Source: an uncultured Planctomycetota bacterium (GTDB taxonomy: Bacteria > Planctomycetota > Planctomycetia > Isosphaerales > Isosphaeraceae). Taken from it: 64,000 nucleotides of DNA. This document shows positions 1 to 5,892 of this stretch, one piece after another. Every line of letters starts with the position of its first letter. Positions within the stretch are counted from its first letter, which is position 1. Made by a program: the position numbers and the translations under genes. The DNA lies in assembly GCA_963737655.1 (NCBI GenBank), contig CAVTTN010000002.1:288001-352000 (forward strand), read 5' to 3'. Under the pieces are notes generated by a model. That model did no database searches. It worked only from the letters and a program-made list of their open reading frames with translations, and was not told the DNA's origin.

Positions 1-191
1 CCGTCTTGTATCAGGCCCCCGACGAGGAAGGATTCGCCGAGTTGAGGGATTGGTTCCGCTCACTCGGCATTGAGGTGCAAGCGGAGAGCATCGAGGATCT
101 CGCGTGCAACACAGATGACCCTGCCCCCGACAAGCTGCACCACGAATTATACGAGCGATACCTGGGCCTGACGCCCGGCGCCTCCCCGTGA
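1..191 (+). CDS. 3' end of a hypothetical cassette-like gene (5' truncated by window edge)
   Basis: Open frame ending GASP-TGA. The TGA lies inside the IS110 end motif CTCCCCGTGAAC. Confidence 0.6.
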   Translation, partial: VLYQAPDEEGFAELRDWFRSLGIEVQAESIEDLACNTDDPAPDKLHHELYERYLGLTPGASP

Positions 192-343
192 ACTCTTCGC
201 GCCGGCGGTTCGGCATCGGTTGATACTATGTGGGCGTGATCATCGATCGGCCCGCATCCCCCCCGGCCCCCGCGACGACGGGGACGGCCCGATCCGGCTC
301 GGCGGGGCTTGCGGCCGGGCGCCCCGCCTCCGACCCGTCGCCC

Positions 344-1696
344 TCACGACGGCGGCGACGGCGGCGACTTCGCCACCAGCTCGTAGCCCAGCGACCTCGC
401 CTTGCGCCGCAGCGAACGCTCCTGCTTCCGCCTCACCTCCGCCTCGTACTCCGCCAGCGACCTCGACACGTACTCCTCGCCGTGCCTGAGCAGCCGGTAC
501 ACCAGCCGCGACAGCTTGTGCGCCGTCGCCGTGATCGCCCCCCGGCCGCCGATCCGGCCCTTGATCCGCCGGTAGAACTGGCCCGTCGCCGTCGCCGTCC
601 GGCCCGCCGCCTGCGCCGCCATCCGCAGCGCCTGACCCACCCGGTTCTTGCCCTTGCGGGGCGTGCGACGCCGCTCGGTCTTGTTGCTCCGGTCGGTCCG
701 CGGGCAGAGGCCCAGCCAGCTGGCGAAGTGCTTCTCGCTCGGGAACCGCCCCACGTCGCCGCCGAGCTCGGCCAGGATCACCGTCGCCGTCGTCGCGTCG
801 ATCCCCTCGATGGCCGTCAGGTCCACGCCCATCGCCCGGGCCAGCTTGGCCGGGGCGTCGAACCGCACGTCGTTGGCCTTGCGGCCGCGACGCCGCGGCC
901 TCGGGGCGACCGGCTCGCCCCCGGAGCGGTCGGGCAGGCGGTCCAGCTCCTCGGCGATCCGGGCGTCGCACTCGTCGACCTGGCGGTGGAGGTAGTGGTA
1001 CAGGTCGGACGCCTGCTTCAGGGCGAACAGGTGCTCGGGCCGCCAGGTGCCCTCCAGGGCCCGGGCGATCTCCGCCTCGTCCCGGGCGCACTGCTCGTGC
1101 CGCAGCGCGGCCAGCTTCGCCGGGTGGCGCTCGCCGGCGAGGATGGCGGCGATGATCGCCGTGCCGGTGACGCCCGTGATGCTGCTGACGACCTCGGTCA
1201 GCTTCACATTCATCTGCTCCAAAGCCTTCTGCATGTGCTGGACGTGGTGCGAGGCGTACCGCACGAGCATCTGCCGCTGCCGCCAGTAGCCGCGCAGGGC
1301 CAGGACGGCCCCGGGCGGGCGGAAGGACGGGCGGAGCAGGCCGCAGGCGTGGAGGCGCTGGAGCCACTGGCAGTCGAGCCGGTCGGTCTTGGGCCGGGCG
1401 CCGCAGTGGCTGGCCTGGCTCGGCTCGATGAGGAAGACCTCGAAGCCGCGCGATTCGAGCAGCTCGAACAGGGGGATCCAGTAGACGCCGGTGGACTCCA
1501 GGACCACCGAGGTGACGCCCTCGGCCCGGAACCAATCGGCCAGGGCGTGGAGGTCGGCCGAGCAGGCGCCGAAGGTGCGGACCCGTCCGGGCCCGACGCA
1601 GGCGACGTGGTTGTCGGAGTGGACGTCGACGGCGGCGGCGTGGGGGTGGACGACCGGCAGGGACGCGTCGGGATCGGGGGGCGTGCGGCGACTCAT
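344..1696 (-). CDS. IS110-family transposase/recombinase (DEDD RuvC-like domain plus Transposase_20 domain)
   Basis: Motifs AAVDVH, VVLESTGVYW and KTDRLDCQWL form the DEDD tetrad. The C-terminal IEGID...RFPSEKHFASWLGLCPRTDRSNK carries the conserved Ser. Confidence 0.95.
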   Translation of the reverse strand: MSRRTPPDPDASLPVVHPHAAAVDVHSDNHVACVGPGRVRTFGACSADLHALADWFRAEGVTSVVLESTGVYWIPLFELLESRGFEVFLIEPSQASHCGARPKTDRLDCQWLQRLHACGLLRPSFRPPGAVLALRGYWRQRQMLVRYASHHVQHMQKALEQMNVKLTEVVSSITGVTGTAIIAAILAGERHPAKLAALRHEQCARDEAEIARALEGTWRPEHLFALKQASDLYHYLHRQVDECDARIAEELDRLPDRSGGEPVAPRPRRRGRKANDVRFDAPAKLARAMGVDLTAIEGIDATTATVILAELGGDVGRFPSEKHFASWLGLCPRTDRSNKTERRRTPRKGKNRVGQALRMAAQAAGRTATATGQFYRRIKGRIGGRGAITATAHKLSRLVYRLLRHGEEYVSRSLAEYEAEVRRKQERSLRRKARSLGYELVAKSPPSPPS

Positions 1697-1725
1697 GGCG
1701 AGGGCTCCGGCGGGTGGGGGGCCAA

Positions 1726-1901
1726 GCCGTCGCGGGCCGAGAGGGGGTCCGGGGACGAGGTAGTCTCCCCGACGGGAACGTCGCGGGGCCGTGTTGACAC
1801 GGCGCCGCGGGTCACCAATGATGGGGCCACGGCCTCTCGGGCCATGCTAACCTGCGGGCGGCGAGCACCAGGGAGATGACGGCCGGGAGGCCCGCGACGG
1901 C
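1726..1901 (-). ncRNA. Putative IS110 bridge RNA (target-binding and donor-binding loops)
   Basis: A perfect 13-bp stem (1726-1738/1889-1901) encloses two UGGUG...CCCGY-guide loops. The guides are AGGUUAG (reverse complement of 1847-1853, matching attC CTAACCT) and CGGGGAG (reverse complement of 1765-1771, matching the IS end CTCCCCG). Confidence 0.75.
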
Positions 1902-1984
1902 GTGCCCCAGCGTATCGCGCCCGGTGGTCGGGGCCACCCCCGGTTCACGTCCGTCGGGGAGCGGTCGGAGACGGCGCGGAGAGT

Positions 1985-2080
1985 TAACCTCGCGCTGCAG
2001 CGGACCCGGCCCGCAGCGGCGACTTCCGCGTTACCGTCGTCTGCCCGGCGGTGCGGGTCCGCTGAGCTTCGTCGTTAGGC
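1985..2080 (+). other. Integron attC site, R'' box disrupted/adjacent to IS110
   Basis: TAAC...GCAGCGGACCC...GGGTCCGCTGAGC...GTTAGGC gives an imperfect palindrome ending in GTTRRRY. It is homologous to the attC at 3352. Confidence 0.85.
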
Positions 2081-2420: not shown

Positions 2421-2843
2421 ATGAATGACGAAGACACGCGGGTCTTGTTCGAGGAGCCGCAGATCCTGGCGGTGGCTATCTTCGTCGCCCTGCTCGTGGT
2501 CGCGATCCTCATGATCCCCTGCTTCTACATTTCCCGTCGCCGGGAGACGAGGGTCCTGGCGGGCGTCGGTGCCTCCATGTTCGCGATCGCGGCGGTCGTT
2601 TATGGAGACCTGGCGTTCACTCGCTGGGCACTTTACGATGGCGGCCATGGTCGCTCCCCCGGGACGGCCCCGTTAAAGGATTGGCTTGTATTCGCGGCAA
2701 TCAATGCGGTCCTGGCGATCGTGGGCTCAATTCCTGGCGGGGTGCTGGGCTTGGCCATCGGGTTGCTGATCGAGCGAAGGCACCGAAGACGAACCGGAGC
2801 GAACAAGTCGCCGATCGAGCCGTCGGACGCCGCCTCCCCGTGA
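2421..2843 (+). CDS. Hypothetical three-TM membrane protein (cassette gene)
   Basis: GGAGG RBS and hydrophobic helices. It ends DAASP-TGA within the IS110-end-like motif. Confidence 0.7.
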   Translation: MNDEDTRVLFEEPQILAVAIFVALLVVAILMIPCFYISRRRETRVLAGVGASMFAIAAVVYGDLAFTRWALYDGGHGRSPGTAPLKDWLVFAAINAVLAIVGSIPGGVLGLAIGLLIERRHRRRTGANKSPIEPSDAASP

Positions 2844-2956
2844 ACTTTGAACGGGCGCATACTGTCGAGGACTGATGGTATGTTCGAGCGATTCCGTGCG
2901 CGCATGACGTCCCCTGCCCCCCCGCATTCGTCGGGTGTGATCCTCACGGGGGGCGG
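2834..2956. repeat. IS110-end-like fragment type A (MITE-like)
   Basis: CTCCCCGTGAACTTTGAACGGGCGCATACTGTC... is homologous to 3157-3190 and 5672-5755. An inverted copy TCACGGGGGGCGG lies at 2944-2956. Confidence 0.75.
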
Positions 2957-2972
2957 AAAAGGGGACGGAGGT

Positions 2973-3113
2973 GCTCTGTAGAAAACCCTCTTGAGAATGA
3001 GGAAAACGAGTAGGTCCGACTTCAGTCGGGCCTACAAAATAAGACCTTCTTGTAGGCCCGACTGAAGTCGGACCTACTCGTTTCCTTCTCCATCACCGGG
3101 TTTTCTACAAAGC
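2973..3113. repeat. Nested palindrome: GCTCTGTAGAAAACCC arms around an inverted GTAG-REP pair (REPIN-like)
   Basis: GTAGGTCCGACTTCAGTCGGGCCTAC at 3010-3035 and its reverse complement at 3052-3077. Outer arms are 2973-2988 and 3098-3113. Confidence 0.85.
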
Positions 3114-3156
3114 AGGACGGAGGGAATTCTGAGCTTCCCGAGCCACTGAAGGCCGC

Positions 3157-3190
3157 CTCCCCGTGAACTTTACACGGGCGTATACCATCG
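3157..3190. repeat. Truncated IS110-end-like fragment type A
   Basis: GGCCGC|CTCCCCGTGAACTTTACACGGGCGTATAC. Confidence 0.7.
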
Positions 3191-3318
3191 GGCGAGGAAA
3201 AGGGGACGGGGCGAGGAAAAGGGGACGGGCGAGGAAAAGGGGACGGAGCGGAATGCCACGAAGTTAGTGGTAAATCCCGAACTGGAGAAGGGGACGGAGA
3301 ACTGGAGAAGGGGACGGA
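3190..3318 (+). repeat. Short tandem repeats built on AAGGGGACG
   Basis: GGGCGAGGAAAAGGGGACG x3 (3190-3245) and GAACTGGAGAAGGGGACGGA x2 (3279-3318). Confidence 0.85.
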
Positions 3319-3351
3319 GGGAATTACGAGGTTACTGTGTCGTCAAAGATC

Positions 3352-3451
3352 GCCTAACCTCGCGCCGCATCGGACCCCGCACCGTCGCGACCTCCTTCGT
3401 GTTATCATGACTCACTCGGCGGTGCGAGTCCGCTGAGCTTGGTTGTTAGGC
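3352..3451 (+). other. Intact integron attC site
   Basis: GCCTAAC (RYYYAAC) ... GTTAGGC (GTTRRRY) with inner complementary arms CGGACCCCGCACCG and CGGTGCGAGTCCG. Confidence 0.9.
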
Positions 3452-3559: not shown

Positions 3560-4321
3560 ATGGCGAGCACCCAACGCACGATTGTTGAGGCGGAAGTCAA
3601 GAAGCCGTCTCCGGACTGGACCGCGGCGATCGACAACCTGAATGCCCTGACCATGGTCGAGATGCTTCCCACCCTCGCCGGCCTGGCTCCATCGATCCGC
3701 AAAGAGGTGGTGAGCCAGGCCTGGAAGCTGCTCTCCGTCCAGCGCGGCTGGAAGGACTGCTACGAACGCATCGAGTTCGCGGCCGAGGTGGTCACGGAAC
3801 AGAAATTCAAGCAAGACGACACCAGGGCCCCCGCCGGCCAGATTCAGGACGCGACCAACTTCCTGGTCGCCCTCCTGAAACCGGCGAAGAGTCAGGCGGT
3901 GCAGGTCGGCTTCACCTCCGCAGATGACGCAGCGATCGCCGCCCTGCAGGAGATCATCCCGACGACGATAGCCGTCGGGCTAGAATTCGCCGGCAGCATC
4001 TTTTCACGGTCGGGCTCCTTCCGGTTCACCGCGCCGAAGCAGGGCGAGGCGACCGCGTCCGACTCGAACGTCCCCGTGCCGACGGGGACCGGGGCCGTGG
4101 GGTCGTATCACACCCACCCGGAGACAACGCGCAACTCCGAGAACTTTTCGCCACAAGACATGATGATCTGCCGTGGAAATGAGCAAATTCATCTGCCACC
4201 GCGCGTGTTCTACCTCGGCACCCCCAGCGGGAAGATCAAGAGGTTGATCCCGCCGGCCCTGCTCACCGGCCAGGACAAGGAGAATTTCGGCCTGCTTGGC
4301 AAGCTCACGATCCTTCGGTAG
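3560..4321 (+). CDS. DUF4329-type (JAB-like HTHP) domain protein
   Basis: C-terminal half has FTSADDAAIAAL...EFAGSIF...GSYHTHP...NFSPQD, the HxH...S..D pattern of DUF4329/JAB-like domains. Confidence 0.7.
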   Translation: MASTQRTIVEAEVKKPSPDWTAAIDNLNALTMVEMLPTLAGLAPSIRKEVVSQAWKLLSVQRGWKDCYERIEFAAEVVTEQKFKQDDTRAPAGQIQDATNFLVALLKPAKSQAVQVGFTSADDAAIAALQEIIPTTIAVGLEFAGSIFSRSGSFRFTAPKQGEATASDSNVPVPTGTGAVGSYHTHPETTRNSENFSPQDMMICRGNEQIHLPPRVFYLGTPSGKIKRLIPPALLTGQDKENFGLLGKLTILR

Positions 4322-4455: not shown

Positions 4456-4524
4456 GGTATGATCCACGGTTTCTGGGCGGTGCGGGTCCGCGGAGCTTTG
4501 GCCTTCGGAGGCGGGAGGTTCCTC

Positions 4525-4914
4525 GTGGGAATGGAATGGGCGGACTGGCGACCGGACGCTGAGGATCTGGATTTTCGGGGCATTACCTCGCGCTATTCCG
4601 ACATTCCCGGGCTCGTTCTTGACGAGTCTCGCGTGCCGGAGGCCTTCCGCCATCTCCTCCCGCTGGCCAGGCACTGGGCCGTGGGCGATGACCGCGAGCG
4701 GGCCAACCTGATGTGGCTCACGGACACCGAAGAACTCCGACGATTCGTCGATGCCGTCTGGACTCAGTTCGAGGCGATCGATGCCTGGTGCGGATCGCGT
4801 CGCGGCCTCGTCCCGGTCCCCGACGAGGTGGTCCTCTTCGATATGATGCTGGAGGCGGCGGCGGACGCCGTGGCCATCCACGCCGATGAACCGGATGAAG
4901 CCGCCTCCTCGTGA
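4525..4914 (+). CDS. Hypothetical acidic protein (cassette gene)
   Basis: GGAGG RBS. It ends EAASS-TGA within the GCCTCCTCGTGAAC motif. Confidence 0.7.
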   Translation: MGMEWADWRPDAEDLDFRGITSRYSDIPGLVLDESRVPEAFRHLLPLARHWAVGDDRERANLMWLTDTEELRRFVDAVWTQFEAIDAWCGSRRGLVPVPDEVVLFDMMLEAAADAVAIHADEPDEAASS

Positions 4915-4998
4915 ACGAGTCTGGCCCGGGCGGCCGAATCCTCGCGGATCGTCCCTGCGACCGTTACGGCGGGGCTTGACATGGTCGGTTGGGCCGGG
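4905..4998. repeat. IS110-end-like fragment type B
   Basis: CTCCTCGTGAACGAGT...CCCTGCGACC...CGGCGGGGCTTGACATGG is homologous to 6230-6320. It shares CGGCGGGGCTTG with the intact IS end (300-311). Confidence 0.7.
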
Positions 4999-5004
4999 GA
5001 AGGA

Positions 5005-5172
5005 AAGGGGACATTCTTGCTCTGTAGAAAACCCGGTTCGCAGAGGTTTATCGAGTCGGTCCGACTTCGGTCGGGCCTACAAAAAGGCCTTATTTTGCAG
5101 GCCCGACCGAAGTCGGACCGACTCGATTCCTGACTCACACCGGGGTTTTCTACAGAGCAAGAACGTCCCCTT
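5005..5172. repeat. 168-bp three-layer palindrome (AAGGGGAC / GCTCTGTAGAAAACCC / REP pair)
   Basis: Near-perfect inverted arms AAGGGGACATTCTTGCTCTGTAGAAAACCC ... GGGTTTTCTACAGAGCAAGAACGTCCCCTT. Confidence 0.9.
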
Positions 5173-5338: not shown

Positions 5339-5681
5339 ATGCCGGTCAGCATCTGGCTTGAGCCTGTGAACGATAGGCCCTCGCATGATTACACGGGGCC
5401 GAGGGGTAAGATCGAATTACACGACGGCCAAGAAGTCCTGATCGGTAGACACCCTCACTGCGGAGTCGTCCTCTTCAGAGATAAAGTCGCGCAACCACTG
5501 CGTCATCTCGCAGCGTGATGGTGTCGCGGTGATCGAAGATTTAAGATCGAGATATGGCATCTCTGTGAATGGCCTACGCTTCGAGAAAGCGAGCCTCGCC
5601 CCAGGCGACCTGGTCATCATCGGCGATTTTGAATATATCGTGCGAGACATCCACTCCGAACTCGTCGGAGCCTCCTCGTGA
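5339..5681 (+). CDS. FHA domain protein (frameshift near 5488, probably a sequencing error)
   Basis: VLIGRHPHC in the first frame. The second frame reads (S)RNHCVI...IEDLRSRYGISVNG...LAPGDLVIIG and ends GASS-TGA in the IS-end motif. Confidence 0.8.
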
Positions 5682-5755
5682 ACTTTGCACGGGCTTGTAC
5701 TGTCAAGGATTGATGGCGTGTTCGAACGATTTCATGTGTGCGCGTGAGGCCCCTG
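5672..5755. repeat. IS110-end-like fragment type A
   Basis: Aligns over ~85 bp with 2834-2916. Confidence 0.75.
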
Positions 5756-5892
5756 AACCACGCGTGGGTCGGATGAGCTTCGCACGGGTTCGGCGCCGGT
5801 CCGGGGTGGGCGCCGCTCCTCCGCCCTGGCGATCTTACCAGGGCGACGGCTTGAGGCGGAGAATGGGGTCATGAGTGCTCGGAGGGCGGGCC

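What the first reader, a model, noticed from the sequence alone, without database searches (positions are those of the whole stretch)
1726..1901. Readable bridge RNA programmed against the integron attC core site
Seen: on the transposase strand the upstream non-coding region has a perfect 13-bp closing stem and two parallel modules, UGGUG...CCCGC-AGGUUAG and UGGUG...CCCGU-CGGGGAG. AGGUUAG is the exact reverse complement of CTAACCT, found in the attC at 3354-3360 (TAACCT at 1985). CGGGGAG is the exact reverse complement of the IS end CTCCCCG (182-188). Both share the CT/AG core. A CGCCGCC tract (reverse complement of 1857-1863) next to the target guide matches the flank at 2828-2834. Established: IS621-type bridge RNAs have target- and donor-binding loops around a CT core. 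The known IS1111-attC group has its non-coding region downstream of the transposase. Inference: this is an upstream-NCR IS110 lineage targeting the attC R'' box. The left-hand guides match less well.
Basis: partly seen in the sequence, partly recalled or inferred. Interest (0 to 1): 0.85.

Follow-up and report, generated by a model that had tools for sequence, protein, structure and literature searches.

The report
Integron-targeting bridge RNA, fold-back donor
A jumping gene carries an RNA guide that aims it at integron gene-cassette sites, and that RNA appears to read the element's own ends on one DNA strand folded back on itself rather than on a double helix, which would be a new way for these programmable recombinases to work.

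Summary
The bridge RNA is real. It belongs to an IS110 element of the ISPpu9 type (window 184-1985). All 8 IS left ends and all 28 copies of a 380-bp transposase-less derivative (MITE) in this genome sit in the attC R'' box. Both 7-nt right guides covary with DNA: the MITE's donor guide and end changed together, and family target guides match their own flanks (22 of 33 exact; null 1.4).

New here: the left donor guide does not match the DNA beside the core. It matches a 7-mer about 25 nt inside the left end, on the same strand as the right donor guide. This held in 31 elements and in 44 held-out ones. A hairpin and a 5-7-bp subterminal inverted repeat are spaced so that one strand folds into an IS621-sized donor bubble.

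Best model (inferred): one strand is copied out as a circle and inserted folded. Against it: this copy's hairpin is weak, and ISPpu9 hairpin mutants still circularise. No RNA or recombination data were available.

The parts
184..1985 (-). IS110 element of the ISPpu9 type, inserted in the attC R'' box
   Evidence: 6 full and 2 partial copies in the genome with identical boundaries
344..1696 (-). DEDD/serine bridge recombinase, 450 aa (E67, D105, D108 invariant; S337 aligned with the IS621 catalytic-loop serine)
   Evidence: Pfam PF01548+PF02371; NCBIfam NF033542 over cut-off; alignment; IS621 alignment; model pLDDT 89, best PDB hit IS621
1726..1901 (-). predicted bridge RNA, two internal-loop modules inside a 13-bp closing stem
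   Evidence: fold; 35-sequence alignment, 97.2% of cells paired, 11 of 22 pairs with compensatory change, 0 of 500 shuffles as high. Expression not shown
1873..1879 (-). left target guide position; degenerate in this element (1 of 7 identical to the attC left flank consensus)
   Evidence: position from the family signal at the IS621-like register, 3.02 of 7 vs 2.10, z 6.3, 51 elements
1847..1853 (-). right target guide AGGUUAG, pairs with core + AACCT of attC R''; followed by a 2-nt handshake guide at 1845-1846
1820..1826 (-). left donor guide CCCCAUC; predicted partner is the + strand at 1953-1959 (5 of 7)
1765..1771 (-). right donor guide CGGGGAG, pairs with core + right end
   Evidence: changes with the end in the MITE; first 5 nt equal the element end in 32 of 34 held-out elements
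1909..1914 (-). -10-like box TACGCT just upstream of the RNA
   Evidence: TAnnnT at this position in 50 of 61 family members vs 2.3% of control windows; inferred promoter
1794..1822 (+). antisense sigma70-like promoter (TTGACA-17-AATGAT) inside the donor loop, like Asr9 of ISPpu9
   Evidence: only hit in 150-2150, shuffle mean 0.0; function inferred
1943..1949 (+). left subterminal inverted repeat GTTCACG, complementary to CGTGAAC at 187-193
   Evidence: sequence; changes together with the right repeat across the family, TGAAC/GGAAC/GTAAC/GAAAC
1953..1959 (+). LD*: internal 7-mer read by the left donor guide on the CT strand
1961..1975 (+). left-end DNA hairpin (5 of 6 bp here; 6 bp with one G-T in 4 of 8 copies)
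   Evidence: weak in this copy
1976..1985 (+). 8-nt spacer and TT core at the left junction
177..193 (+). right junction: target left flank, CT core (182-183), right donor CCCCG (184-188), repeat TGAAC (189-193); its TGA is in frame with the TAA it replaced
1984..2080 (+). interrupted attC site (R'' remnant to R' GTTAGGC)
   Evidence: intI over the TIGR02249 cut-off at G000:C2:6777135-6778073
3351..3451 (+). empty attC with a perfect guide match CTAACCT at 3354-3360

Best explanation
An ISPpu9-type IS110 element makes a two-loop bridge RNA from a promoter in its left end. The right target guide selects CT-AACCT in attC R''. Cleavage 3' of the core on the CT strand is inferred from IS621. The donor loop differs from IS621: both donor guides pair with the same DNA strand. 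Most likely cycle (inferred): the right guides plus the handshake hold the two junctions and the CT strand is copied out as a single-stranded circle. Across the new junction that strand folds. The subterminal repeats pair on one side and the left-end hairpin closes the other, leaving an open bubble: 7 nt + core + 5 nt on one side, and LD* + 5-6 nt standing in for the missing bottom strand on the other. The folded strand is then joined into the target's CT strand and replication completes the insertion. The MITEs supply their own RNA, matched to their own ends, and borrow the protein. Shown by sequence: element, target, right-guide covariation, same-strand left-donor covariation, hairpin spacing. 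Inferred: expression, single-stranded substrate, order of steps.
For: Left donor guide vs DNA beside the core: 1.48 of 7 (null 1.60) in 31 elements and 1.66 (null 1.50) in 44 held-out elements. Against same-strand LD*, 5-6 nt inside the repeat: 4.68 (null 2.85, max 3.71 in 20000 permutations) and 4.75 (null 3.45, max 4.02 in 10000). In 34 tree-independent pairs, own beats cross 8 to 1 with 8 compensatory changes; the canonical site gives 2 to 7 with 0; eight control offsets give 0-4 compensatory changes and no bias. The hairpin starts 0-1 nt after LD* and ends 7-8 nt before the core in 22 of 44 held-out elements (shuffle mean 1.85, max 5); a guide-independent test gave 15 of 29 (null 1.0). GNA triloops lie on the CT strand 7 times vs 1 on the other strand. 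The first handshake base matches the base beside the left core in 24 of 29. Core order TT-left/CT-right: 36 of 36 in the genome, and 30 vs 1 reversed among 59 family elements. Literature: IS621 excises a single-stranded circle (10.64898/2026.08.31.748434); CazIS110 integrates top-strand ssDNA, about 20-fold worse than dsDNA at LD-RT (10.1101/2025.10.25.684509). ISPpu9's left box has the same layout of core, 6-7 nt, palindrome, 7 nt, 6 nt, repeat (PMC12288879 Table S2; my reading of the table).
Against: No RNA, protein or recombination data. This copy's left end folds no better than shuffles (z 0.66), and free DNA folding often prefers other structures; only 11 of 31 hairpins have z below -1.65. 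The LD* match is imperfect: position 6 is mismatched in 46 of 68 and the spacer is 5 or 6 nt. The independent-pair count is small (9 informative pairs of 34), with 10 both-changed positions that are not compensatory. ISPpu9 with a mutated left-end palindrome still gave normal circles by end-point PCR (PMC12288879 section 17), so the hairpin is not needed for excision. The core asymmetry does not separate single-strand transfer from IS621-like exchange with repair of a nicked bottom strand (PMC13626964).
Confidence: 0.55

Rival explanations
1. Same-strand reading on double-stranded DNA. The circle (or the integrated left end) is duplex, and supercoiling or the protein extrudes the CT-strand hairpin locally as a cruciform or three-way junction, bringing LD* next to the core. 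The bridge-RNA promoter firing away from the left end could supply the negative supercoils.
For: Explains all guide and spacing data equally well. The conserved -10 box lies about 30 nt inside the repeat. dsDNA circles are reported for IS621.
Against: Needs about 45 bp opened against weak hairpins. The subterminal repeats, 35 nt vs 5 nt from the core, pair in register only in a fold-back.
Confidence: 0.25
2. Right guides only. Recombination uses the two right guides and the handshake (half-match); LD* complementarity and the hairpin serve regulation (antisense RNA pairing, 5'-leader structure, protein docking) or are relics.
For: The left target guide is nearly unmatched in this element, yet targeting is strict. 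Half-match recombination is reported for IS621. ISPpu9 palindrome mutants circularise. An antisense promoter is present.
Against: The guide has the same sense as the transcript, so it cannot pair with it. Compensatory changes persist across proteins only 42-60% identical, which a relic would lose. The 7-nt spacing matches recombination geometry.
Confidence: 0.15
3. Ordinary IS621-like bridge recombination on duplex DNA, with a left donor guide that has simply drifted.
For: The fold and catalytic residues match IS621. The target loop follows the IS621 register.
Against: The canonical match is at chance level in both sets while the same-strand match is far above it.
Confidence: 0.05

Closest known systems
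ISPpu9 / MITEPpu9 of Pseudomonas putida (IS110 group; PMC12288879, PMC8450116)
   Same: About 440-450-aa transposase with the same motifs (sequence seen in a PMC11187229 supplement; compared by eye, not aligned). AG core on the transposase strand, palindrome in the left box, upstream RNA region, antisense RNA, and a non-autonomous RNA-carrying MITE whose right box differs in the 5 nt next to the core. L039 shows the same IS-MITE tandem.
   Different: ISPpu9 targets REP sequences; this element targets attC R''. In the parts I read, guides are not mapped, the palindrome is left unexplained, and Ssr9 is treated as a regulatory or selfish RNA rather than a bridge RNA with its own donor guide.
IS621 / ISCro4 bridge recombinases (PMC11208160, PMC13626964)
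   Same: RuvC-like DEDD plus serine Tnp fold, two-loop RNA in the left end, 7-nt right guides ending in AG, handshake dinucleotide, 7+2+5 site geometry.
   Different: [quoted passage not shown] The element is inverted relative to the CT strand, donor and target cores differ (TT vs CT), the repeats are 5-7 bp and asymmetric, and the protein is about 120 aa longer (19-20% identity).
IS1111-attC group (ISKpn4, ISPst6, ISPa25)
   Same: RNA-guided insertion into one end of attC sites (PMC11187229).
   Different: Those have a downstream RNA and 11-13-bp subterminal repeats; this element has an upstream RNA and a different transposase clade. Targeting is convergent. [quoted passage not shown]
Single-strand, hairpin-recognising systems (attC/IntI, IS200/IS605)
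   Same: Works-like resemblance only: a folded single strand serves as the recombination site (recalled from general knowledge, no call).
   Different: Unrelated enzymes; no RNA guide reads the folded site.

Membership tests
IS110 family bridge recombinases | DEDD_Tnp_IS110 + Transposase_20 protein with catalytic acidic residues and serine | tested here: met
IS110 family bridge recombinases | structured two-loop RNA in a non-coding end | tested here: met
   structure covariation, (predicted structure only)
IS110 family bridge recombinases | guides covary with target and donor | tested here: met
   right guides; left target guide weaker:
IS110 family bridge recombinases | RNA is expressed, binds the protein and is needed for recombination | not testable with these tools
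   no RNA holder listed; conserved -10 box only
IS621-type donor recognition | left donor guide pairs the bottom strand directly left of the core | tested here: not met
   chance-level match
IS621-type donor recognition | identical core dinucleotide in donor and target | tested here: not met
   TT vs CT in 36 of 36; identical cores in 26 of 59 family elements
IS1111-attC group | long non-coding region downstream of tnp | tested here: not met
   the guide RNA is upstream; definition from PMC11187229
IS1111-attC group | 11-13-bp subterminal repeats 7 and 3 bp from the ends | tested here: not met
   5-7-bp repeats about 35 and 5 nt from the core
IS1111-attC group | inserts at a fixed point in attC | tested here: met
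   36 of 36 junctions
ISPpu9 subgroup of IS110 | about 440-450-aa transposase homologous over its full length | tested here: inconclusive
   shared motifs seen by eye; no alignment or tree with ISPpu9 was run
ISPpu9 subgroup of IS110 | AG core, left box with palindrome, short right box | tested here: met
   searches compared with PMC12288879 Table S2

The most novel reading that the evidence does not exclude
The ISPpu9-type IS110 lineage is an RNA-guided recombinase whose natural donor is a folded single DNA strand: both donor guides read one strand, and the element's ends build their own pre-opened recombination bubble. In this host it has been aimed at integron attC sites and spread mainly through RNA-only mini-elements that carry their own reprogrammed guide.
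Probability: 0.5. Interest if true: 0.9.

Novelty: new variant of a known kind. Interest (0 to 1): 0.82.

Why it matters
How a copied-out single-stranded IS110 circle re-inserts is an open question in 2025-2026 preprints, which infer host conversion to dsDNA. This clade offers a sequence-encoded answer, testable at once in ISPpu9, where the left-end palindrome was noticed and left unexplained. If right, these are programmable recombinases for single-stranded cargo, with cores that need not match. It also explains why covariation next to the core would miss this clade's left donor guide, and gives usable rules for reprogramming it. For integron biology it is an independent origin of attC targeting: 29 of 57 catalogued attC sites in this genome carry the element or its MITE.

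Tried and rejected
CGCCGCC as left target guide: rejected. Left target guide pairing on the same strand as the right one, or elsewhere in either flank (offsets 0-51, 51 elements): no positive signal; only the canonical register and +1 stand out, so the target is not shown to fold back. Rfam: no relevant family, only sub-threshold miRNA/snoRNA hits on hairpin repeats. Replication-strand bias: arrays lie on both sides of the skew extremes, not informative. A scan of viral contigs for an ISPpu9 left-box motif found nothing, so ISPpu9's own guides were not tested. Handshake covariation in independent pairs was too sparse (3 vs 1). The attC occupancy test is inflated by a repeated cassette: 10 of the 13 empty AACCC sites are one cassette; raw p 7e-6, collapsed p 0.01. 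Earlier scan findings: none by sequence or in this genome; one word hit on IS1111 remnants elsewhere did not bear on this. Literature searches that showed no description of same-strand donor guides or of an upstream-RNA IS110 in attC: (open-access library only).

Full report
1. What is there. Window 344-1696 (-) encodes a 450-aa IS110 recombinase. Its model (pLDDT 89) matches IS621 best, at about 20% identity. The window is G000:C2:288001-352000. The genome holds 6 full and 2 partial copies and an integron integrase over the curated cut-off. A pattern search catalogued 57 attC-like sites: 7 carry the IS, 22 a MITE, 26 are empty and 2 carry other sequence. Counting junctions directly gives 8 IS and 28 MITE left ends, all followed by AACCT, all with core TT on the left and CT on the right. 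The reconstructed target is GCCGC-CT-AACCT, the R'' box. All 29 occupied catalogued sites read AACCT; empty ones read AACCT (13) or AACCC (13). Ten of the latter are one repeated cassette, so p is about 0.01 after collapsing. CTAACCT occurs 92 times in the genome, so 7 nt alone may not explain the specificity.

2. The RNA. The 13-bp stem and the two modules are as described. Of 109 loci matched a two-module pattern; the other 39 were truncated or too divergent and were dropped. An alignment of 35 distinct RNAs supports two internal loops, each with a small inner stem: 97.2% of cells paired, 11 of 22 pairs with compensatory changes, 0 of 500 shuffles as high, slid controls 36-51%. The structure was derived from these same sequences, which favours it. 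A TAnnnT box precedes the RNA in 50 of 61 elements (control 2.3%), and an antisense promoter lies inside the donor loop. Expression was not observed.

3. Right guides are real. The first 6 nt of the target guide occur in the left-junction window in 22 of 33 elements exactly and 30 of 33 with one mismatch (permutation means 1.4 and 6.5). The MITE (380 bp, 28 copies, 15 identical, no ORF) is a natural experiment: same target guide, same target, but donor guide CGAAGAG matching its own end where the IS has CGGGGAG. In held-out loci the donor guide equals the element end in 32 of 34. The dinucleotide after the target guide matches the first base inside the left end in 24 of 29, as for IS621 handshake guides (10.1101/2025.05.14.653916 passages).

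4. Left target guide. It is the 7 nt ending 2 nt before the first TGG (1873-1879), not CGCCGCC. Family-wide it matches the left flank at the IS621 register (3.02 of 7 vs 2.10, z 6.3, 51 elements). In this element it matches only the core C; shifting by one base gives 4-5 of 7 (my reading). Three relatives with the same right guide but other left guides sit outside attC (L141, L157, L162; L157 has only 8 nt of flank). How attC is singled out here is therefore only partly explained.

5. Left donor guide: the new observation. Next to the core it matches at chance. It is instead identical in sense to a 7-mer inside the left end, 5-6 nt before a subterminal repeat, so it pairs the same strand as the right donor guide. 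Discovery set: 31 elements with both ends anchored (4 more lacked a left anchor), 4.68 of 7 vs null 2.85, canonical 1.48 vs 1.60. Held-out set: of 80 metagenome loci, 11 had no motif, 20 no left anchor, 49 were usable and 44 new; 4.75 vs 3.45 (max 4.02), canonical 1.66 vs 1.50. The left anchor used the target guide, so this set tests the donor guide only. On a tree of 68 elements (four mis-anchored rows and the two MITE rows left out), 34 independent pairs gave own over cross 8 to 1 and 8 compensatory changes, against 2 to 7 and 0 at the canonical site. Positions 2-4 pair (with wobble) in 63-66 of 68; position 6 is usually mismatched.

6. Geometry. Between LD* and the core lies a hairpin of variable sequence and fixed position: 0-1 nt after LD* and 7-8 nt before the core in 22 of 44 held-out elements (null 1.85), and 15 of 29 in a guide-independent test (null 1.0). 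Folding the CT strand of the circle junction pairs the two repeats and leaves 7+2+5 nt facing LD* plus 5-6 nt. That is the size of the IS621 site, with the strand's own upstream part standing in for the bottom strand. The free-DNA minimum-energy fold often differs and this copy's hairpin is weak, so the structure would need the RNA and protein. Ends from more distant proteobacterial and viral loci fit partly by eye (L202, L203, L205 show a hairpin after the core; L201 barely).

7. Mechanism. Shown: element, target, guide covariation, spacing. Inferred: copy-out of the CT strand, folding, insertion of the folded strand (0.55). The rivals are hairpin extrusion from duplex DNA (0.25), right-guide-only recombination (0.15) and plain IS621 behaviour (0.05). 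Same-strand reading in some form is thus about 0.8. The element's right end puts TGA in frame with the R'' TAA it displaces; an ATG-started ORF of at least 60 codons ends there in 18 of 36 insertions (11 of 32 at empty sites). The left end restores TAAC, so cassette genes and probably attC function survive (inference). TGAAC is also present in non-attC relatives, so this predates the retargeting.

8. Known systems and what I read. IS621: PMC11208160 sections 6, 8, 12 and passages; its figures and supplements were not seen. It predicts bridge RNAs in 85.7% of IS110s, so an RNA in this clade may already be modelled; ISPpu9 is not among its six illustrated elements. PMC13626964: passages. IS1111-attC: PMC11187229 passages and a supplement search; PMC11089894 passages; Tetu and Holmes 2008 and Post and Hall 2009 seen only as citations. 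Single-strand excision: 10.64898/2026.08.31.748434 and 10.1101/2025.10.25.684509, first part and passages. 10.64898/2026.10.21.760802 section 2.4 and passages built 86 bridge-RNA models using 25-nt donor windows; its closed supplements could include this clade. 10.64898/2026.08.14.744561: passages. ISPpu9: PMC12288879 sections 14, 17, first part of 18, passages and supplement parts 1-2, and PMC8450116 passages and a supplement search; the figure with the exact mutations was not seen. ISPpu9 has the same end layout and a MITE. Its palindrome mutant still circularises, mutations just inside the left core or in the right box disrupt correct joining, and the authors suggest a role in integration. 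That fits the model's split between excision and insertion but does not test it. Searches showed no account of same-strand donor guides or of an upstream-RNA IS110 in attC; the library is open-access only.

9. Verdict. A true bridge RNA aimed at attC, in a known subfamily, with a donor-recognition geometry that appears undescribed and can be tested directly. New variant of a known kind; interest 0.82.

Noticed in passing
G000:C2, 28 sites (e.g. L118, L119; nearest 286268-286650, just upstream of the window): 380-bp ORF-less MITE with its own bridge RNA, a -35/-10-like pair read by eye, and a donor guide matched to its own end; it outnumbers the IS 28 to 8.
   Followed up: yes
G000:C2:4847050-4848545 (partial copy at 286890-287600): A second, distant IS110 (32% identity) with guide GTGTTAG sits in a site resembling the sequence just before the first cassette beside intI, a likely attI. 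Its donor guide matches its end CAGAACAG. Two IS110 lineages may target the two integron site types in one genome.
   Followed up: partly
L039, downstream of the transposase: IS right end joined directly to a second RNA-carrying MITE whose donor guide TGAAGAG matches its own end; the same tandem layout as ISPpu9-MITEPpu9.
   Followed up: partly
L188; G000:C2:4298601 (-): An element with a 57%-identical transposase and guide AGGTTAG also sits in attC R''; a 45-bp remnant of a similar left end is in this genome. Possibly a second origin of attC targeting; L188 was not in the tree.
   Followed up: partly
window 2834-2970, 3157-3200, 4905-5000, 5672-5790: Right-end stubs of related elements at cassette ends, at least three followed by AAAAGGGGAC-type repeats, with the left end and attC missing; the ORFs at 2421-2843 and 4459-4914 stop in the stub's TGA.
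   Followed up: partly
window 2985-3115 and 5030-5165: Long perfect inverted repeats (sub-threshold miRNA-like Rfam hits), REP/MITE-like; a similar one lies near G000:C2:819300.
   Followed up: no
L173, L186, L190, L195; L201-L203, L205: Relatives retargeted to tRNA-like flanks, and to A-run sites in what look like IS3-family elements (judged by eye).
   Followed up: no
window 344-1696 (model m31ca8c955a13): Relative to IS621 the protein has extra helices near 166-213, a basic loop at 254-280 and a C-terminal helix at 414-435: candidates for binding the DNA hairpin (speculation).
   Followed up: no
window 3560-4321: Cassette ORF with a DUF4329 domain.
   Followed up: no
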